A DNA stretch of 64,000 nt, taken from the sequence record OR544955. The stretch is one strand, 5' to 3'. The position numbers were made by a program, and so were the translations under genes. Position 1 is the stretch's first letter. Each line of letters opens with the position of its first letter. Below, piece by piece: positions 34,371-40,999 of this stretch. The notes beneath the pieces are model-generated. The model saw only the letters and a program-made list of their open reading frames with translations, was not told where the DNA came from and made no database searches. Origin of the DNA: Escherichia phage vB_EcoP_EP32B.

Positions 34371-35885
34371 TTATAAATTAATTGTTTTCATTACATAGTT
34401 AAATTTCTCATCAGCGTAACGTTGGATACGATCAATACCGTGTTTTAACAAGTAATTAAGATGAGTATACTTCTTTTTAGTATTTAATGATTTAGGTTTT
34501 ACACCTGCGTCATCTATGAGATCCCAAACTGTAGCAACAGCTTTAGAACCGTGCTTACGAAGCACACGACCTACGGTTTGAAGTACGATAATTTTTGATT
34601 TAACACCATGGGCAAAAATAACATGATGAAGATTCTTGACTGAAATACCAGTAGAGAATACTCCATATGATGCGACAATAATAATGCCTTTACCATTTTC
34701 TGCCATGACTTTAAGCGCATTACGTGTTTCAGTATCAACTTCACCTGATACGTAATAAACTTTTTCGTATCCAAGCTCTTTAATAGCTTCAAATATTTCT
34801 TTACCGTGTGTAACGTGTTTAAACATTACAAAGGCGTTCTCGTCTTTCTTAGCCAATTTGACTGAAAGTTGAGCAATCCACTTTGTACGACGTTTTAGTC
34901 CGGTAATAATTTTAACTTCTTCTTGGTATGTTTTACCTTTTAATTTAACGGCGAATTCGTCCGGATAACGAAGGAAAATACTATTAATCTTAAGCTCAGT
35001 TACCTGTCCGTCTTCCATTAATTTAGACGTGCTAACAGGACGGAAGATTTCGCCGAACATACCTACGTACTGCATTACATTGGCTTTTCCGTCTCTTAAT
35101 GAGCCGGATAAACCGAATTTAAACATGCAATTATTTAATCCTGAGATGATTGAAGAAATACTTTTGCCTGTTGCTAAGTGGCATTCATCATTCATCATCA
35201 TACCGAACTGAGAGAACCATTCTTTAGGCTGCTTAACTACCGTTTGCCATGTGCCAACAATAATTGGAGCGTCGTTTTTAGATTTGTCCGCTTTATCAGC
35301 ACCACCACCAATTTTCTTAATCATCGAATGACTAAACAAACGATAATCAACAAAATCGTTAGCCATCTGGGTTGTCAATGCTGTTGTAGGTACGATAATG
35401 AGAATTTTACCTTCATAGTTCTCTAGATAATACCGAGCTAAAAGTGCTTGGATTAGTGATTTACCTGCTGATGTCGGAAGGTTTAAAATTCGACGACGAT
35501 TAACTAGTCCTTCATATACTGCATCTTTTTGATACCAATGTGGTTCGATTTTGGCGTTGCCTGAATAAATTTCTTGTTTAGAAAGCCATGAGTCAAAATC
35601 TTCCCTGGTAAGGTCTTCAGTCTCAAAGATTTTAGGGTCAATCCATACAGAATAACTCATATTGTTACAGAACTTTTTTATTTGTCCTACAAGTCCATAT
35701 GGTAACAAACGATTGTAATCTAAAAGACGAATTCTACCATCCCATTGCCCATAGCGATATTTTGGGTTAAATTTATACCCGTCAGCTTCAAAGCTAAAAA
35801 AGTCACGAAGTTCGTAAAACGTACTTTCGTCGCATTCAATGCGAACGTGACTAAAATCATAAAAATGTACTTTAATGTCAGTCAT
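34371..35885 (-). CDS. uvsW: UvsW RNA-DNA and DNA-DNA helicase
   Basis: 504 aa; SF2 helicase motifs (LPTSAGKS Walker A-like; MMNDECH DExH box). Confidence 0.9.
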   Translation of the reverse strand: MTDIKVHFYDFSHVRIECDESTFYELRDFFSFEADGYKFNPKYRYGQWDGRIRLLDYNRLLPYGLVGQIKKFCNNMSYSVWIDPKIFETEDLTREDFDSWLSKQEIYSGNAKIEPHWYQKDAVYEGLVNRRRILNLPTSAGKSLIQALLARYYLENYEGKILIIVPTTALTTQMANDFVDYRLFSHSMIKKIGGGADKADKSKNDAPIIVGTWQTVVKQPKEWFSQFGMMMNDECHLATGKSISSIISGLNNCMFKFGLSGSLRDGKANVMQYVGMFGEIFRPVSTSKLMEDGQVTELKINSIFLRYPDEFAVKLKGKTYQEEVKIITGLKRRTKWIAQLSVKLAKKDENAFVMFKHVTHGKEIFEAIKELGYEKVYYVSGEVDTETRNALKVMAENGKGIIIVASYGVFSTGISVKNLHHVIFAHGVKSKIIVLQTVGRVLRKHGSKAVATVWDLIDDAGVKPKSLNTKKKYTHLNYLLKHGIDRIQRYADEKFNYVMKTINL

Positions 35886-35914
35886 GTCAAATTACCATGT
35901 AATAAATATAGTTA

Positions 35915-35922
35915 TATTTATA
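35915..35922 (-). promoter_or_regulatory. Late promoter for uvsW
   Basis: Plus TATTTATA = minus TATAAATA ~30 nt upstream of uvsW start. Confidence 0.6.
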
Positions 35923-35935
35923 ATGAGGAAATACC

Positions 35936-36604
35936 ATGATCGATAAAGACTATATTGAAGAGTTACGTGCTCTTTCTGATAAAAAGGAAGCCAAAGCTAA
36001 ACTGTTTGAATATGCGGAACAATTTGGTATTAGTGTTAAGAAAACAAAATCATTCGATAATATTGTTATTGATATCGAAGAAGCTCTTAACGCACTGGCT
36101 GATGAACCATTACCTGAAACTGATGGATTATCTATCACCGATTTAATTACTGCCGCAGATGATGTGGACAGTGTTAATTTCACCAACGAAGAAGTTAAAG
36201 AAGAAGCTATTCTGCTGTTTGATTCTCCAACAGAACAAGTTGAAGTATTAGAAGTTGTCGAACAAGAAATAGAATTCGACCATGATAAATTTGAAGAAGC
36301 AATTACTCAGGTTGTTGAATCTGAAAAAGAGCCTGAGCCAGAAGTAAATAAAGAAGTAAAATTTGTTCTGCCTGAAAATTTTAGTCCTACGCTTATTAAA
36401 TTAGGCAAAGGCCCAGGGTATGTTACTGTTCCTTGGTGGATTTATCAATGGATAGCCGAAACACCTGATTGGAAATCTCGCCCAACTAGTTTTGTACATG
36501 CTTCTGCTCACCAAACATTATTTAGCTTAATTTATTATATTAATCGCGATGGATCAGTTCTAATTCGCGAAACTCGTAATTCTTCTTTCGTAACATTAAA
36601 ATAA
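35936..36604 (+). CDS. Hypothetical acidic protein at the position of Inh (prohead protease inhibitor)
   Basis: 222 aa (T4 Inh 226) between uvsW and hoc; assignment by synteny and size only. Confidence 0.4.
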   Translation: MIDKDYIEELRALSDKKEAKAKLFEYAEQFGISVKKTKSFDNIVIDIEEALNALADEPLPETDGLSITDLITAADDVDSVNFTNEEVKEEAILLFDSPTEQVEVLEVVEQEIEFDHDKFEEAITQVVESEKEPEPEVNKEVKFVLPENFSPTLIKLGKGPGYVTVPWWIYQWIAETPDWKSRPTSFVHASAHQTLFSLIYYINRDGSVLIRETRNSSFVTLK

Positions 36605-36613
36605 GGATAACTT

Positions 36614-38029
36614 ATGGCCTTCACTGTCACGTTATCTCCTCTAACTCCTACAGGGGTTATTGGAGGTTCACAAACATTCACTGCTACACCCGCAGGTGAA
36701 GCTCCAGACGGTACTATTACATACGTCTGGACTGTAGATGATATAACACAGGGCTCTACAGCTGCTACAATGGATTATACTCTTGCTTCTCCAGCAGGAA
36801 CAAAAAAAATTAAAGTGGTTGCAACTAATACACTTTCCGAAGGAGATCCGGAAATAGCTGAAGCATCAACAACTATCACTGTTAATAAGAAAGAAAATAA
36901 TTCCACTATCACTGTTACTCCGGCTTCTCCAGCGGCAGTAGAAATTGGAACAGCAACAACATTCACTGCTAATGTAAACAATAAACCTACTGGTGCTGCT
37001 ATTGCTTATACATGGAAAGTTGACGGGGTCGCTGTCGACGGTCAAAAACAATCAACCTTTGAATATACACCAACATCTGAAGGAACTAAGTCTATAACTT
37101 GCTCTGCCACAGTGACTGCAACTGATTACGTTGATAAAACGGTAGAATCATCAGCGGTTTCTTTGACTGTAAATAAAAAGGCTAATTCTTCAACGCTAAA
37201 AATTACACCAGAGTCTCCGACTACAGTCTTTGGTGTTCCTATTACTTTAACTGCAAATGTCTCTAGTGCACCTTCAGGTGCTACTACATCATTCCAGTGG
37301 TCAATGGATGACAGTAATATTCCAGATGCAACTTCTGCTACGTATAAATTCACTCCAACCGAGGTCGGAAGTAAAACTCTTAAATGCACCGTATCTGTTT
37401 CTGCAACAAATTATGTTACAAAAGAAATTTCAGCAGAAGCAACAGTAGTAACTAATAATGCGACATTTAATAGTGCCACCATTTCTTTATCTCCGCCATC
37501 AGTTAATACTACTGTTGGTGAAACTGCAACTTTAACAGCATCTGTTACTGGTGCTCCGGGTGATACTAATATTGTGTATTCTTGGAAGAAAGACAACGTA
37601 GCAGAAAGTAATTCTACTAATACTTACAGTATTGATACCTCCTCGGCAGGTACTCATACAATTAAAGTTGAAGCAGTATTAACTAAAGATAATTATACTT
37701 CAAAGACAATTAGTTCAACCGCTGAAGTTGTTATTGCTGAACGGACTCCAATTGAACCAGAAGGTGAACTACCTTATGTTCATCCTCTTCCGCATCGTAC
37801 TTCAGCTTACATCTGGTGCGGATGGTGGGTTATGGATGAAATCCAAAAAATGACTGAAGAAGGTAAAGATTGGAAAATTGACGATCCAGATAGTAAGTAT
37901 TACTTGCATCGTTATACGCTTCAGAAGATGATGAAAGACTACCCAGAAGTTGATGTTCAAGAATCACGTAATGGATACATCGTCCATAAAACTGCTTTGG
38001 AAACTGGTATCATCTATACATATCCATAA
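36614..38029 (+). CDS. hoc: Hoc outer capsid protein with four tandem Ig-like domains plus C-terminal capsid-binding domain
   Basis: 471 aa; four ~93-aa repeats each starting near ...ITVTP/LKITP/ATISLSP and ending ...Y.WK.DD / ...TV.NKK; Trp-rich C-terminus (YIWCGWWVMDE). Confidence 0.8.
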   Translation: MAFTVTLSPLTPTGVIGGSQTFTATPAGEAPDGTITYVWTVDDITQGSTAATMDYTLASPAGTKKIKVVATNTLSEGDPEIAEASTTITVNKKENNSTITVTPASPAAVEIGTATTFTANVNNKPTGAAIAYTWKVDGVAVDGQKQSTFEYTPTSEGTKSITCSATVTATDYVDKTVESSAVSLTVNKKANSSTLKITPESPTTVFGVPITLTANVSSAPSGATTSFQWSMDDSNIPDATSATYKFTPTEVGSKTLKCTVSVSATNYVTKEISAEATVVTNNATFNSATISLSPPSVNTTVGETATLTASVTGAPGDTNIVYSWKKDNVAESNSTNTYSIDTSSAGTHTIKVEAVLTKDNYTSKTISSTAEVVIAERTPIEPEGELPYVHPLPHRTSAYIWCGWWVMDEIQKMTEEGKDWKIDDPDSKYYLHRYTLQKMMKDYPEVDVQESRNGYIVHKTALETGIIYTYP

Positions 38030-38041
38030 TCAAGGGGCTTC

Positions 38042-38066
38042 GGCCCCTTTCTTCGTTTTAAAGCAT
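38042..38066 (+). terminator. Intrinsic terminator after hoc
   Basis: GGGGC-TTCG-GCCCC hairpin followed by TTTCTT. Confidence 0.7.
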
Positions 38067-38126
38067 ACAAACACATCTTGAGATTGATGTATATAATGGC
38101 ACAAACCAAATAATACGGGGTTGATT

Positions 38127-38321
38127 ATGAGAGCTGAAGTTGAAGTTTATACACTACATGAGGCGGGATTTTCATTCGTAGAAATTGCTCAAAAAATCGG
38201 TTTACAGCCTAAAGAAGTTGGATTACTATGGACTAAAGCCGAGACAGCTCGGTCAAAGTTTAAAGCAAAAGAAAAAGTTGTATACCGTAAACGTCTGATT
38301 AACAAAAAGGTGAAGAAATGA
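38127..38321 (+). CDS. Hypothetical small protein with helix-turn-helix-like segment
   Basis: ATG at 38127 (MRAEVEVYTLHEAGFSFVEIAQKIGLQPKEV...); track ORF begins 6 nt earlier. Confidence 0.45.
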   Translation: MRAEVEVYTLHEAGFSFVEIAQKIGLQPKEVGLLWTKAETARSKFKAKEKVVYRKRLINKKVKK

Positions 38322-38569
38322 GTTTTGCACAGGAATTAAGAGAAAGGGCCCTGGCCACTAAAGCTAATTTGTTGAGTGATTTTATTACTAACTTCTCTGT
38401 GATGGCAGAGAAAGCCGCTGACAAAGGCCAGACACAATTTACATACTATCCATCAAAGAATGATTTAACTATCACCGAGCAAGTCGGGCAATGGCTTCGT
38501 GATAACGGCTTTCAGTACAAAATTAATCATGACCAGCGCGATGGTCATTGGATAGAAATCAAGTTCTAA
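38318..38569 (+). CDS. Hypothetical protein (24.x position)
   Basis: 83-aa ORF, start overlaps previous stop. Confidence 0.45.
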   Translation: MSFAQELRERALATKANLLSDFITNFSVMAEKAADKGQTQFTYYPSKNDLTITEQVGQWLRDNGFQYKINHDQRDGHWIEIKF

Positions 38570-38688: not shown

Positions 38689-39687
38689 ATGTTTAAGAAA
38701 TACAGCAGTCTTGAAAACCACTACAACTCTAAGTTTATTGAAAAACTCTACACTAATGGTTTGACTACTGGTGTTTGGGTAGCACGTGAGAAAATCCATG
38801 GGACCAACTTTAGTTTAATTATTGAACGTGACAACGTCACATGCGCCAAGCGCACAGGCCCTATTCTTCCGGCAGAAGATTTTTATGGTTATGAAATCGT
38901 ACTCAAGAAGTATGATAAAGCTATTAAAGCCGTTCAGGAATTCATGTACACAGCTCGAGCTGTATCATATCAAGTATTTGGTGAATTCGCTGGTGGTGGA
39001 ATCCAGAAAGGTGTTGACTACGGTGAAAAAGATTTTTATGTGTTCGATATCCTTATCAATACAGAAAGTTGTGATAATACGTATTTGACCGATTATGAAA
39101 TGCAAGATTTCTGTAATGAATTCGGTTTTAAAATGGCACCAATGCTTGGTCGTGGCACATTTGATGCTCTTATCATGATTCCAAACGACCTTGATTCTGT
39201 CTTAGCCGCTTATAATGCTACAGCGTCAGAAGACCTTGTCGAAGCAAATAATTGCGTATTTGATGCTAATGTTATTGGTAATAATACTGCGGAAGGTTAT
39301 GTTCTGAAGCCCTGTTTCCCTAAATGGTTGCCAAACGGTACTCGTGTAGCTATTAAGTGCAAGAACTCTAAATTCAGTGAAAAGAAAAAGTCTGATAAGC
39401 CTATTAAAACTCAGGTTCCATTAACCGAAATTGACAAAAACTTACTTGATGTTCTAGCTTGTTATGTTACATTAAATCGTGTTAATAATGTGATTTCTAA
39501 GATTGGGACTGTAACGCCAAAAGATTTTGGCAAAGTGATGGGATTGACTGTTCAAGATATTCTGGAAGAAACTTCTCGTGAAGGTATTGTATTAACATCA
39601 TCTGATAATCCGAATCTTGTTAAGAAAGAATTAGTCCGAATGGTGCAAGATGTTCTGCGTCCTGCATGGATTGAATTAGTATCATAA
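38689..39687 (+). CDS. rnlB: RNA ligase 2
   Basis: 332 aa (T4 Rnl2 334); N-terminus [21 protein letters not shown] and nucleotidyl-transferase motif [11 protein letters not shown]. Confidence 0.88.
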
Positions 39688-39690
39688 CGA

Positions 39691-39717
39691 AAAAGGGACC
39701 GTAAGGTCCCTTTTTTT
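39691..39717. terminator. Bidirectional terminator between rnlB and gene 24
   Basis: AAAA-GGGACC-GTAA-GGTCCC-TTTTTTT between convergent genes; overlaps gene 24 stop. Confidence 0.8.
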
Positions 39718-40999
39718 ATTCATCAATGATAATTTTTGGTAGCTTAACACCGAGTAAAACAGACAAGTCTGAACGTCCTGCCATTTTATCCATGTCCCCG
39801 CCATCAATTATTCTCGCTTCTTTTTCATCTTTTGCTACTGTGTAAGGATTTGCTGATAAGGCATATCTAACCAATAATCCGATAGACGGTTGCAAGCTTT
39901 CTGGATCAACTACAACTTTAAATGCACCGACATGTTCCGGGTCATCTAAATCCACTCCTTCAGTATATGGAGCATAAAAGATGGACCCTACAATTTCTTT
40001 TTCGCCGAGATTTTCTACAACACCCACAATAACATAATCTAACGGGCTGTTGGTATCGCAGTAAAGAGGTAATCCATTTGCCAAGAATCCATAAGCATTT
40101 TGTGAAAGATACTTGTCATCTTCTGGCTTATGTTTTAACCAACCGGAAGCAGCAAGAATAGCAGCTGCACGAGCTGAGGCTACACAAAACGTTGCAGTAT
40201 AAGTTGTCTCTTTTTGGATGTGTGATACCATTTCACACACCATTCGATATAACGAACGACCTGCTTCTGGAGCGGATGCATAGCTCAAGTCAATAAATCC
40301 GGTGTCAGTAATTCCAGTAACTTTATAACGTTTCGATACAGTAATTAAAGACTGAAGAATATCTTTATTAATTTCATCTGCCATTTCAGTAGCAAGCAAA
40401 TCTTCTAAGAAGTTAGGGGCATCAAATCCATTCGCTTCCAAATCTTGCGCTAATTCAACCGTGAGGCCAGTTTTAAGTTTACGAGATTTGACTGAAGTTT
40501 GCCATTTATTAATCTGGAATCTTGCATCAGAAATTTCGCTATCAGAGCTTTCAAATTTGCTTGTTACCGCTGCATCTGAAAATAACCGTACCTTTAAATG
40601 AACGACCGCAATCTGAAGAGCTAATTCTAGATCACTTTCTTGAATATCTGCAAATGGTGTATCTTCTAACACTTTATAGACGATATTATTATATTTGAAA
40701 AAATCGCCTTTATTTAGTGTGACTTTTGATTCTTCTGTGAGTTCGGTAATTTTTTCTCGGTCTACATATCCAACTTCACCAGCATAAGTAGCACCGGTTT
40801 TAAATGTGAATTCGTTATCTGGGTTAAGATATTTGATACCATAAAAAGCAGCAACAGGTTGATTAGTTCTTTGTGTTGCTACAATGTCAGAATATATTAA
40901 TTTAGTCGTAGCGCGAGTCAAAGCAACGAGATTTGGGCGACCAATTGAGTTGCTAGTAGACGTTGTAGATTCACGCAATAATTTTTGGATTTTACTCAT
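39716..40999 (-). CDS. 24: Capsid vertex protein gp24
   Basis: 427 aa, identical to T4 gp24 length; late promoter 28 nt upstream; paralogous to gp23. Confidence 0.88.
   Translation of the reverse strand: MSKIQKLLRESTTSTSNSIGRPNLVALTRATTKLIYSDIVATQRTNQPVAAFYGIKYLNPDNEFTFKTGATYAGEVGYVDREKITELTEESKVTLNKGDFFKYNNIVYKVLEDTPFADIQESDLELALQIAVVHLKVRLFSDAAVTSKFESSDSEISDARFQINKWQTSVKSRKLKTGLTVELAQDLEANGFDAPNFLEDLLATEMADEINKDILQSLITVSKRYKVTGITDTGFIDLSYASAPEAGRSLYRMVCEMVSHIQKETTYTATFCVASARAAAILAASGWLKHKPEDDKYLSQNAYGFLANGLPLYCDTNSPLDYVIVGVVENLGEKEIVGSIFYAPYTEGVDLDDPEHVGAFKVVVDPESLQPSIGLLVRYALSANPYTVAKDEKEARIIDGGDMDKMAGRSDLSVLLGVKLPKIIIDE

What the first reader, a model, noticed from the sequence alone, without database searches (positions are those of the whole stretch)
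36614..38029. Hoc with an extra (fourth) Ig-like domain
Hoc here is 471 aa versus 376 aa in T4. The sequence shows four tandem ~93-aa Ig-like repeats, each beginning with a ...(I/L)(T/K)(V/I)TP.SP... strand and ending ...TV.NKK..., followed by the Trp-rich capsid-binding domain. That is one more repeat than T4, consistent with internal tandem duplication. Hoc fibres mediate adhesion to mucus and cell surfaces, so repeat number may tune fibre reach.
Basis: partly seen in the sequence, partly recalled or inferred. Interest (0 to 1): 0.4.

Follow-up and report, generated by a model that had tools for sequence, protein, structure and literature searches.

The report
RB69-type Hoc with four Ig domains
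The gene encodes the head-decoration fibre Hoc of an RB69-like (Mosigvirus) T4-type phage, and it does carry four immunoglobulin-like domains instead of T4's three; but phage RB69 (record AY303349) and about 30 other sequenced phages have the same four-domain protein, so it is correct but ordinary.

Summary
Window 36614-38029 (+) is an intact 471-aa ORF. It has a Shine-Dalgarno site, a terminator hairpin after the stop codon, and T4-type neighbours (uvsW, inh, hoc, 24.3, 24.2, rnlB, gp24).

The protein matches T4 Hoc (376 aa) over residues 1-190 and 289-471, which leaves about 95 extra residues. Four homologous units of 93-96 aa lie at aa 1-93, 94-189, 190-284 and 285-377. They are followed by a capsid-binding domain that is 88/91 identical to T4's. 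AlphaFold models residues 1-377 as four beta-sandwiches with pLDDT 85-96. The best fold matches are solved four-Ig fragments and RB49 Hoc.

It is not new. RB69 Hoc is also 471 aa and 96% identical, and 30 phage records carry the full gene. Close Hoc homologues come in length classes of 376, 471/472 and 563-570 aa, with 3, 4 and 5 units. A 2023 paper describes Hoc proteins with 1-10 Ig domains.

The "tandem duplication" reading is only weakly supported. The extra unit is 37-45% identical to D2-type units and there is no repeat at DNA level. This contrasts with T4-type 472-aa alleles, whose duplicated D2 units are 75-84% identical. The extra unit is an old, distinct domain type carried on a variable Ig cassette between conserved flanks.

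The parts
36603..36607 (+). Shine-Dalgarno-like AAGGA, with a 6-nt spacer before the hoc ATG; it overlaps the inh stop codon
   Evidence: Read directly from the sequence. This stretch is identical in RB69 and T4 in the alignment.
36614..38029 (+). hoc coding sequence, 471 aa plus stop codon (RB69-type allele)
   Evidence: ORF list. T4 Hoc 5vf3_Z at E = 6.5e-140. PHROG 1149 'Hoc-like head decoration' at E = 1.6e-137. 453/471 aa identical to RB69 Hoc.
36614..36892 (+). Ig-like unit 1 (aa 1-93), orthologous to T4 Hoc domain 1 (type A)
   Evidence: 61% identical to T4 D1. Homologous to the other units, z = 9-14. Modelled as a beta-sandwich, pLDDT 85-95. No Pfam hit on its own.
36893..37180 (+). 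Ig-like unit 2 (aa 94-189), orthologous to T4 Hoc domain 2 (RB69 subtype B')
   Evidence: 54% identical to T4 D2. PKD hit at E = 7.3e-5, 23.1 bits against a cut-off of 23.5, and a weak Ig_2 hit. pLDDT 91-96.
37181..37465 (+). Ig-like unit 3 (aa 190-284), type X: the extra unit absent from T4 Hoc. It shares the D2-lineage signature, (F/Y)x(Y/F)TPT..G.K and a single Cys.
   Evidence: Falls in the gap of the T4 alignment. Best matches are D2-type units, with local-alignment scores 193 and 191 against 95-139 for other unit types. Identity is 37% to its own unit 2 and 43-45% to T4-type D2. PKD_4, Big_7 and Ig_2 hits are all sub-threshold. pLDDT 91-96. At 95% identity or more it is present in 30 phage records; nothing lies between 60% and 95%.
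37466..37744 (+). Ig-like unit 4 (aa 285-377), orthologous to T4 Hoc domain 3 (RB69 subtype C')
   Evidence: 42% identical to T4 D3. I-set hit at 24.2 bits, above the cut-off of 23.7; Ig_3 at E = 6.8e-6. pLDDT 85-94.
37745..38026 (+). C-terminal capsid-binding domain (aa 378-471), Trp-rich
   Evidence: 88/91 aa identical to T4 Hoc 286-376. His394, Arg395 and Trp401/404/405 correspond to T4 H299, R300 and W306/309/310, residues that PMC10385173 names at the gp23 interface. Nucleotide identity to T4 is 90-94%. The AlphaFold model is poor here, pLDDT below 50.
38032..38059 (+). Intrinsic-terminator-like hairpin (AAGGGGC TTCG GCCCCTT) with a T-run, 3 nt after the hoc stop codon
   Evidence: Terminator scan. 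Conserved in RB69 and T4.

Best explanation
This is the RB69-type allele of hoc, the dispensable 'highly immunogenic outer capsid' decoration protein of T4-like phages.

Shown by sequence: the last ~94 residues are almost identical to the T4 Hoc capsid-binding domain. The first 377 residues are four tandem Ig-like beta-sandwich units in the order A, B', X, C'. A, B' and C' are the counterparts of T4 domains 1, 2 and 3. X (aa 190-284) is an additional unit inserted between domains 2 and 3.

Inferred from T4 work: each monomer docks its C-terminal domain at the centre of a gp23 hexamer and projects the Ig string outward. This gives a fibre roughly one Ig domain (about 45 A) longer than T4's 180 A fibre, with one more acidic surface for weak adhesion or dispersal interactions.

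Inferred origin: X is an old offshoot of the domain-2 lineage, not a recent duplication. This phage inherited it with the whole RB69-type Ig cassette. The cassette sits between conserved flanks (the 3' end of inh plus the hoc start, and the C-terminal domain plus terminator), and these flanks allow cassette exchange by homologous recombination among T-even phages.
For: Identity as Hoc:
- T4 Hoc match at E = 6.5e-140 and Hoc PHROGs.
- Neighbours in T4 order: uvsW, inh, hoc, 24.3, 24.2, rnlB, gp24.
- 96% aa identity to RB69 Hoc of the same length.

Four units:
- Shuffle-tested pairwise homology and four full-length profile matches.
- AlphaFold pLDDT 85-96 over residues 1-377, with four repeated strand patterns.
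- Top Foldseek PDB matches are four-Ig fragments (Dscam1 Ig1-4, ICAM-5 D1-D4, Sidekick Ig1-4), and RB49 Hoc 3shs at E = 1.6e-10.
- Ig/PKD Pfam hits for units 2-4.

Capsid binding:
- 88/91 identity to T4, with the interface residues conserved (residues named in PMC10385173).

Old origin of X:
- Mean identity of X is 0.40 to B, 0.39 to B', 0.30 to A, 0.30 to C and 0.33 to C'; B to B' is 0.53.
- No DNA-level repeat.
- No sequence between 60% and 95% identity to X in 50,697 phage records.
- At most 43% identity to X in the listed best 150 of a 1.84-billion-protein representative library.

Cassette structure:
- Nucleotide identity to T4 is 49-72% across the Ig region and 90-94% in the flanks.
- Mosaic alleles exist: A-B-B'-X-C', A-B'-C and A-B-B'-C.
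- A Mosigvirus (ST0) carries the T4-type A-B-C allele.
Against: - Nothing here tests binding, copy number or fibre length. The extra 45 A is arithmetic from the 180 A, four-domain T4 fibre in PMC10385173.
- Unit 1 has no Pfam hit of its own, and most per-unit Pfam hits fall below the curated cut-offs.
- The C-terminal domain was modelled poorly, so its fold rests on sequence identity to the solved T4 domain.
- The direction of change is not resolved: X gained in the RB69 lineage, or X lost from the A-B-C alleles.
- The high flank identity could partly reflect purifying selection rather than recombination.
Confidence: 0.9

Rival explanations
1. Recent internal tandem duplication of domain 2 within this phage lineage, the first reader's mechanism taken literally: unit X is a fresh copy of unit 2 made by unequal recombination.
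For: X's nearest relatives are D2-type units. X shares the D2 signature motifs and the single Cys (alignment). Exactly this mechanism is visible in T4-type 472-aa and 568-aa alleles, where duplicated D2 units are 75-84% identical.
Against: X is only 37% identical to its own neighbouring unit 2, about the same as the divergence among the three founding domains (27-37%). TRF finds no tandem repeat, and the direct-repeat scan finds only short matches. X is 98-100% conserved across RB69-type alleles, so it long predates this isolate.
Confidence: 0.05
2. The four-Ig form is ancestral, and T4-type A-B-C alleles lost unit X by deletion or recombination at unit boundaries. On this reading nothing is 'extra' here; T4 is the reduced form.
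For: X is as diverged from the other units as they are from each other, consistent with great age. The allele P0011 (A-B'-C, 376 aa) shows that an RB69-type N-terminal half can be joined directly to a T4-type last Ig without X, with the switch at the SLTVNKK boundary.
Against: A-B-C is by far the commonest architecture, 78 of 122 sequences typed. It occurs in both Tequatrovirus and Mosigvirus. X is confined to one tight allele group, 30 records. No outgroup rooting was done.
Confidence: 0.25
3. Residues 190-288 are a long flexible linker or low-complexity spacer rather than a folded domain.
For: The region is Thr/Ser/Ala-rich, like the rest of the Ig string. Pfam hits for it alone are below the curated cut-offs.
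Against: It gives a full-length match to the unit profile at 119 bits. Homology to unit 2 has z = 21. pLDDT is 91-96, with the same strand pattern as the neighbouring units. The best fold matches are four-Ig fragments aligned over about 420 columns.
Confidence: 0.01
4. Assembly or annotation artefact: for example a collapsed or expanded repeat, or a fusion of two ORFs.
For: Repeat-containing genes are prone to mis-assembly.
Against: The units are too diverged at DNA level to mis-assemble. Twenty-eight independent phage records cover 100% of the gene, and 30 cover at least 80%, at 95.7-97.9% identity. The RB69 record holds the same 1416-nt gene.
Confidence: 0.01

Closest known systems
Hoc of Escherichia phage RB69 (NP_861884, gene hoc, NC_004928 112612-114027)
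   Same: Same length (471 aa), 453/471 aa identical, 96.0% nt identity, and the same four-unit plus C-terminal architecture. The neighbours are also the same: uvsW, inh, hoc, 24.3, 24.2, rnlB, gp24.
   Different: 18 substitutions scattered over all domains, only two of them in unit X (S218G, P237L). No architectural difference.
Hoc of phage T4 (NP_049793; PDB 5VF3 chain Z, 8T1X, 8T9R)
   Same: Homologous over its whole length. Domains 1, 2 and 3 correspond to units 1, 2 and 4 at 61%, 54% and 42% identity. The capsid-binding domain is 88/91 identical with the interface His/Arg/Trp residues conserved. Similar acidic pI, 4.78 against 4.74.
   Different: T4 has three Ig-like domains (376 aa) and lacks unit X (aa 190-284). 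The Ig region is only 49-72% identical at DNA level.
Four- and five-Ig Hoc alleles of T4-type phages (472 aa, e.g. vB_EcoM_G10400, BF15, vB-Eco-KMB23; 568-570 aa, e.g. UGKSEcP1/2)
   Same: They also have more Ig units than T4, and the extra units also sit between domain 1 and the last Ig domain.
   Different: Their extra units are recent copies of domain 2, 75-84% identical to it (architectures A-B-B-C and A-B-B-B-C). Here the extra unit is a distinct type, 37-45% identical to any D2.
RB49 Hoc N-terminal three Ig domains (PDB 3SHS) and large Hoc homologues such as Serratia phage Muldoon (10 Ig domains)
   Same: The same design: a linear string of Ig-like domains on a C-terminal capsid anchor. 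3shs matches the model at Foldseek E = 1.6e-10. PMC10385173 reports Hoc homologues with 1 to 10 Ig domains.
   Different: Much lower sequence identity (15% to 3shs in the Foldseek alignment) and a different number of units.

Membership tests
Hoc (highly immunogenic outer capsid protein) family of T4-like phages | C-terminal capsid-binding domain homologous to T4 Hoc residues ~281-376, with conserved His/Arg and Trp interface residues | tested here: met
   88/91 identical to T4. H394, R395, W401, W404 and W405 are conserved. PHROG 21694, 14282 and 11091 Hoc C-terminal hits.
Hoc (highly immunogenic outer capsid protein) family of T4-like phages | N-terminal string of tandem Ig-like domains | tested here: met
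   Four homologous units. Beta-sandwich model at pLDDT 85-96. Fold matches to multi-Ig fragments and to RB49 Hoc. Pfam Ig_3, I-set and PKD above cut-off for the whole protein.
Hoc (highly immunogenic outer capsid protein) family of T4-like phages | Genomic position between inh and genes 24.3/24.2/rnlB/24 in the T-even head-gene region | tested here: met
   ORF order in the window matches the RB69 and T4 annotation.
Hoc (highly immunogenic outer capsid protein) family of T4-like phages | Binds as a monomer at the centre of gp23 hexamers (155 copies per T4 head) and is dispensable for growth | not testable with these tools
   Known for T4 (PMC10385173). Inferred here from the near-identical binding domain only.
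RB69-type four-Ig hoc allele (A-B'-X-C') | 471 aa, with unit X at least 95% identical to the RB69 unit and placed between the D2-type and last Ig units | tested here: met
   The window clusters with P0001, the RB69-type cluster of 54 members. X is 98-100% identical within the group. 30 phage records hold it.
Recent intragenic tandem duplication | Adjacent copies with high identity that is detectable at DNA level | tested here: not met
   TRF returns 0 rows. The direct-repeat scan finds only short families of 30 nt or less. Units 2 and 3 are 37% identical in protein.

The most novel reading that the evidence does not exclude
The most novel reading left open concerns the locus rather than this gene. 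The hoc Ig string may behave as an exchangeable cassette. Whole strings, or single Ig units, would be swapped between Mosigvirus and Tequatrovirus phages by recombination in the conserved flanks and at the conserved SLTVNKK unit junctions. Unit X would then be a distinct specificity module found only in the RB69-type cassette. On this reading, domain number and type are a rapidly reassorting, population-level polymorphism that tunes what the capsid sticks to.
Probability: 0.5. Interest if true: 0.3.

Novelty: already known. Interest (0 to 1): 0.1.

Why it matters
It matters little as a discovery. The four-Ig Hoc is the annotated hoc gene of RB69 and of about 30 other sequenced phages. Variation in the number of Ig-like domains among Hoc homologues is described in the literature (PMC10385173).

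There is modest practical value. Anyone using RB69-like phages for capsid display or mucus-adherence work should expect a Hoc fibre one domain longer than T4's, with an Ig unit that has no T4 counterpart.

The contrast between old, diverged extra units (RB69 type) and recent D2 duplications (T4-type 472/568-aa alleles), together with the mosaic alleles, would make a tidy small study of how decoration fibres diversify.

Tried and rejected
- A BLASTP self-comparison of the whole protein returned only the identity hit. I replaced it with unit-by-unit alignments scored against shuffles.
- The DNA repeat searches found nothing meaningful. This argues against a recent duplication.
- I searched for a closer relative or donor of unit X. 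tblastn against 50,697 phage records found nothing between 60% and 95% identity. phmmer against 1.84 billion representatives listed only identities of 43% or less. That ranking is dominated by giant multi-Ig proteins through summed scores, and the library is clustered at 50% identity, so it is not a sensitive test for a donor.
- I tried to read the two primary Hoc papers (Sathaliyawala 2010, PMC2909354; Fokine 2011, PMC3147960) to see whether RB69's extra domain is mentioned explicitly. Neither is held. Literature searches found no explicit statement about RB69 Hoc having four Ig domains. 'Already known' therefore rests on the database records and on the general statement in PMC10385173.
- Pfam on unit 1 alone gave no hit. 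Its Ig-like status rests on homology to the other units, on the model, and on its equivalence to T4 domain 1.
- AlphaFold did not model the C-terminal domain, pLDDT below 50, probably because the 28-sequence alignment is nearly invariant there. I did not use a second prediction on it because the T4 domain is solved and 97% identical.

Full report
**The observation**

Window 36614..38029 on the + strand is an open reading frame of 471 codons plus a stop codon. An AAGGA Shine-Dalgarno-like site at 36603-36607 precedes it, overlapping the stop codon of the upstream gene. Three bases after the stop codon there is a G+C-rich hairpin with a T-run at 38032-38059.

The neighbours are, in order:
- a helicase ORF on the minus strand (34371-35885)
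- a 222-aa ORF (35936-36604)
- the 471-aa ORF
- two small ORFs (38121-38569)
- a 332-aa ORF (38689-39687)
- a 427-aa ORF on the minus strand (39716-40999)

This is the uvsW, inh, hoc, 24.3, 24.2, rnlB, gene 24 order annotated in RB69 and, in mirror image, in T4.

**Identity**

Against PDB chain sequences the protein hits T4 Hoc (5vf3_Z, 376 aa) at E = 6.5e-140. The hit is in two blocks: query 1-190 to T4 1-190, and query 289-471 to T4 194-376. PHROGs gives 'Hoc-like head decoration' at E = 1.6e-137. A global alignment puts one gap of about 95 residues in T4, opposite window residues ~191-288.

The gene is 96.0% identical in DNA to RB69 hoc, and the protein is 453/471 identical. RB69 hoc is also 1416 nt and 471 aa. 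The closest phage record is Escherichia phage 348Ecol098PP, a Mosigvirus, at 97.9%. The window therefore comes from an RB69-like phage.

**Are there four Ig-like units?**

I cut the N-terminal 376 residues at the obvious boundaries and aligned all pairs of units from the window and from T4. Every pair scored above all 300 shuffles, with z = 8-40.

A profile built from these seven units finds four full-length matches in the window protein (aa 1-93, 94-188, 190-283, 285-377) and three in T4. That test is circular for the window and T4, but it is independent for the 120 homologues described below.

Independent evidence:
- Pfam Ig_3, I-set, Ig_2, PKD and PKD_3 pass their curated cut-offs on the whole protein.
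- Scanned alone, units 2, 3 and 4 each give Ig/PKD-type hits, mostly sub-threshold. Unit 1 gives none.
- An AlphaFold2 model from a 28-sequence alignment has pLDDT 85-96 over residues 1-377, with the same strand pattern repeated four times.
- The best Foldseek matches in the PDB are proteins solved as four consecutive Ig domains (Dscam1 Ig1-4, ICAM-5 D1-D4, Sidekick Ig1-4), aligned over about 420 columns. The RB49 Hoc three-Ig fragment 3shs matches at E = 1.6e-10.

The 'three units plus a long linker' alternative is excluded.

The start motif [IL][TK][VI]TP.SP occurs in units 2 and 3 only, and the TVNKK end occurs in units 1 and 2 only.

**The capsid-binding domain**

Residues 381-471 are 88/91 identical to T4 Hoc 286-376. 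His394, Arg395, Trp401, Trp404 and Trp405 correspond to T4 H299, R300, W306, W309 and W310. Fokine et al. 2023 (PMC10385173) place H299, R300, W306 and W310 at the interface with gp23 hexamers.

The AlphaFold model is poor in this domain, pLDDT below 50. The fold assignment therefore rests on sequence identity to the solved T4 domain. Capsid binding at hexamer centres is an inference from T4.

**What is the extra unit, and where did it come from?**

The extra unit, here called X (aa 190-284; nt 37181-37465), sits between the counterparts of T4 domains 2 and 3. Its best matches are domain-2-type units: local-alignment score 193 with its own unit 2 and 191 with T4 D2, against 95-139 for the rest. 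It shares the D2 signature, (F/Y)x(Y/F)TPT..G.K...C...(T/S)AT(D/N)Y, including the single Cys (alignment).

The identity, however, is low:
- 37% to its own unit 2
- 43-45% to T4-type D2 units
- 27-33% to the other units in its own protein

Mean identities between unit types are X-B 0.40, X-B' 0.39, X-A 0.30, X-C 0.30 and X-C' 0.33, while B-B' is 0.53. X therefore lies outside the T4-D2/RB69-D2 pair. It is about as far from everything as the three founding domains are from one another.

There is no DNA-level repeat. TRF returns nothing, and the repeat finder returns only short families of 30 nt or less.

In 50,697 phage records, 30 hold X at 95% identity or more, none holds it between 60% and 95%, and all others are at 46% or less. 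A phmmer search of 1.84 billion cluster representatives listed nothing above 43% identity. That list is dominated by giant multi-Ig proteins and is not a sensitive test for a donor.

So 'internal tandem duplication' is at most an ancient event in the D2 lineage. It is not something that happened in or near this phage.

**Comparison across relatives**

A search of 5.8 billion proteins gave 891 hits at E <= 1e-10. The 120 best cluster representatives fall into three length classes: 372-379 aa (79), 468-472 aa (31) and 563-570 aa (10). These have 3, 4 and 5 unit matches respectively.

Counting the window and T4 as well, the architectures are:
- A-B-C (78)
- A-B-B-C (29)
- A-B-B-B-C (8)
- A-B'-X-C' (the window and the RB69 cluster of 54 member sequences)
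- three full-length mosaics: A-B-B'-X-C' (P0002, 567 aa), A-B'-C (P0011, 376 aa) and A-B-B'-C (P0013, 472 aa)
- B-X-C' (P0003, 379 aa), which lacks the type-A first unit, comes from a 3.3-kb contig and may be truncated
- one more distant allele (P0092, 563 aa) with its own unit types

In the T4-type four- and five-unit alleles, the repeated B units are 75-84% identical to each other. That is what a recent tandem duplication looks like, and it makes a useful contrast with X.

In the mosaics, the type switches fall at or near the conserved ...SLTVNKK unit boundary (alignment).

**The locus as a cassette**

In a window/RB69/T4 DNA alignment, identity to T4 is:
- 49-72% over the Ig region (36644-37813)
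- 90-94% over the C-terminal domain and the terminator hairpin (37814-38079), falling to 80% in the last 54 aligned bases up to the start of the next ORF (38080-38140)
- 92% over the 3' end of inh (36464-36553), falling to 81% over 36554-36643, the interval that holds the hoc start

The allele type does not follow genus. The Mosigvirus-type variable part of inh is present at 80% coverage or more in 151 records, but the RB69-type hoc is present in only 30. Mosigvirus ST0 carries a T4-type 376-aa A-B-C Hoc.

This pattern fits exchange of the Ig string by recombination in conserved flanks. No formal recombination test was run.

**How it most likely works**

Shown:
- a protein with four Ig-like units and a T4-identical anchor domain
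- an acidic protein (pI 4.78 overall, each unit 4.4-4.9), like T4 Hoc at 4.74

Inferred from T4 work summarised in PMC10385173:
- one monomer per gp23 hexamer, anchored by the C-terminal domain
- the Ig string projecting as a fibre
- roles in dispersal or aggregation control and in weak adhesion to bacterial or mucosal surfaces

T4's four-domain fibre is given as 180 A in that paper. A fifth domain should therefore add roughly 45 A. This is my arithmetic, not a measurement. Whether X adds only reach or also a new binding specificity is unknown.

**Novelty and verdict**

The finding is correct and its central interpretation is supported, but it is already known biology. The same protein is annotated in the RB69 record (AY303349/NC_004928) and in about 30 later ones. 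Variable numbers of Ig domains (1 to 10) among Hoc homologues are described in PMC10385173.

I could not find an explicit published statement that RB69 Hoc has four Ig domains, because the two primary Hoc papers are not held.

Interest is low (0.1). The only mildly interesting residue is the population-level picture of hoc as a reassorting Ig cassette, with both old (X) and recent (B-B) domain gains.

Noticed in passing
window 36464-36643 and 37814-38079, compared with 36644-37813: The hoc Ig-coding region is 49-72% identical to T4 at DNA level. Flanking segments are 90-94% identical: the 3' end of inh (36464-36553), and the C-terminal domain with the terminator hairpin (37814-38079). The interval holding the hoc start (36554-36643) is 81% identical. 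This looks like a variable cassette between conserved recombination arms.
   Followed up: partly
L004 (Mosigvirus ST0, NC_041990) 1646-2776; The hoc allele type does not follow genus. Mosigvirus ST0 has a T4-type 376-aa three-Ig Hoc. The Mosigvirus-type inh 5' part is present in 151 phage records, but the RB69-type four-Ig hoc is present in only 30.
   Followed up: partly
proteins P0002, P0011, P0013 (alignment, typing): These are mosaic Hoc alleles that combine T4-type and RB69-type Ig units: A-B-B'-X-C' (567 aa), A-B'-C (376 aa) and A-B-B'-C (472 aa). The type switches fall at or near the conserved SLTVNKK unit junction. Their genomic backbones were not examined.
   Followed up: partly
proteins P0004-P0042: T4-type Hoc alleles of 472 and 568-570 aa carry two or three copies of domain 2 that are 75-84% identical to each other. 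These are recent tandem duplications, unlike unit X of the window.
   Followed up: yes
window 35886-35935: uvsW and inh are separated by only a 50-bp divergent intergenic region, as in RB69. T4 has the homing endonuclease gene segE at this position.
   Followed up: no
window 35936-36460: The 5' three-quarters of inh (prohead protease inhibitor) is also strongly diverged from T4, 49-79% nt identity with indels. Its last ~140 nt are conserved.
   Followed up: no
whole window: The T4 late-promoter core TATAAATA occurs 17 times against 6.9 expected from shuffles, mostly on the minus strand between 41027 and 49360, as expected for a T-even late structural gene region. No exact copy lies on the + strand directly upstream of inh or hoc.
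   Followed up: no
window 37745-38026 (aa 378-471), model m0bce8ec20585: AlphaFold2 with the 28-sequence alignment gave pLDDT below 50 for the capsid-binding domain, although the equivalent T4 domain is solved (8T1X). The likely cause is that the alignment is almost invariant there.
   Followed up: no
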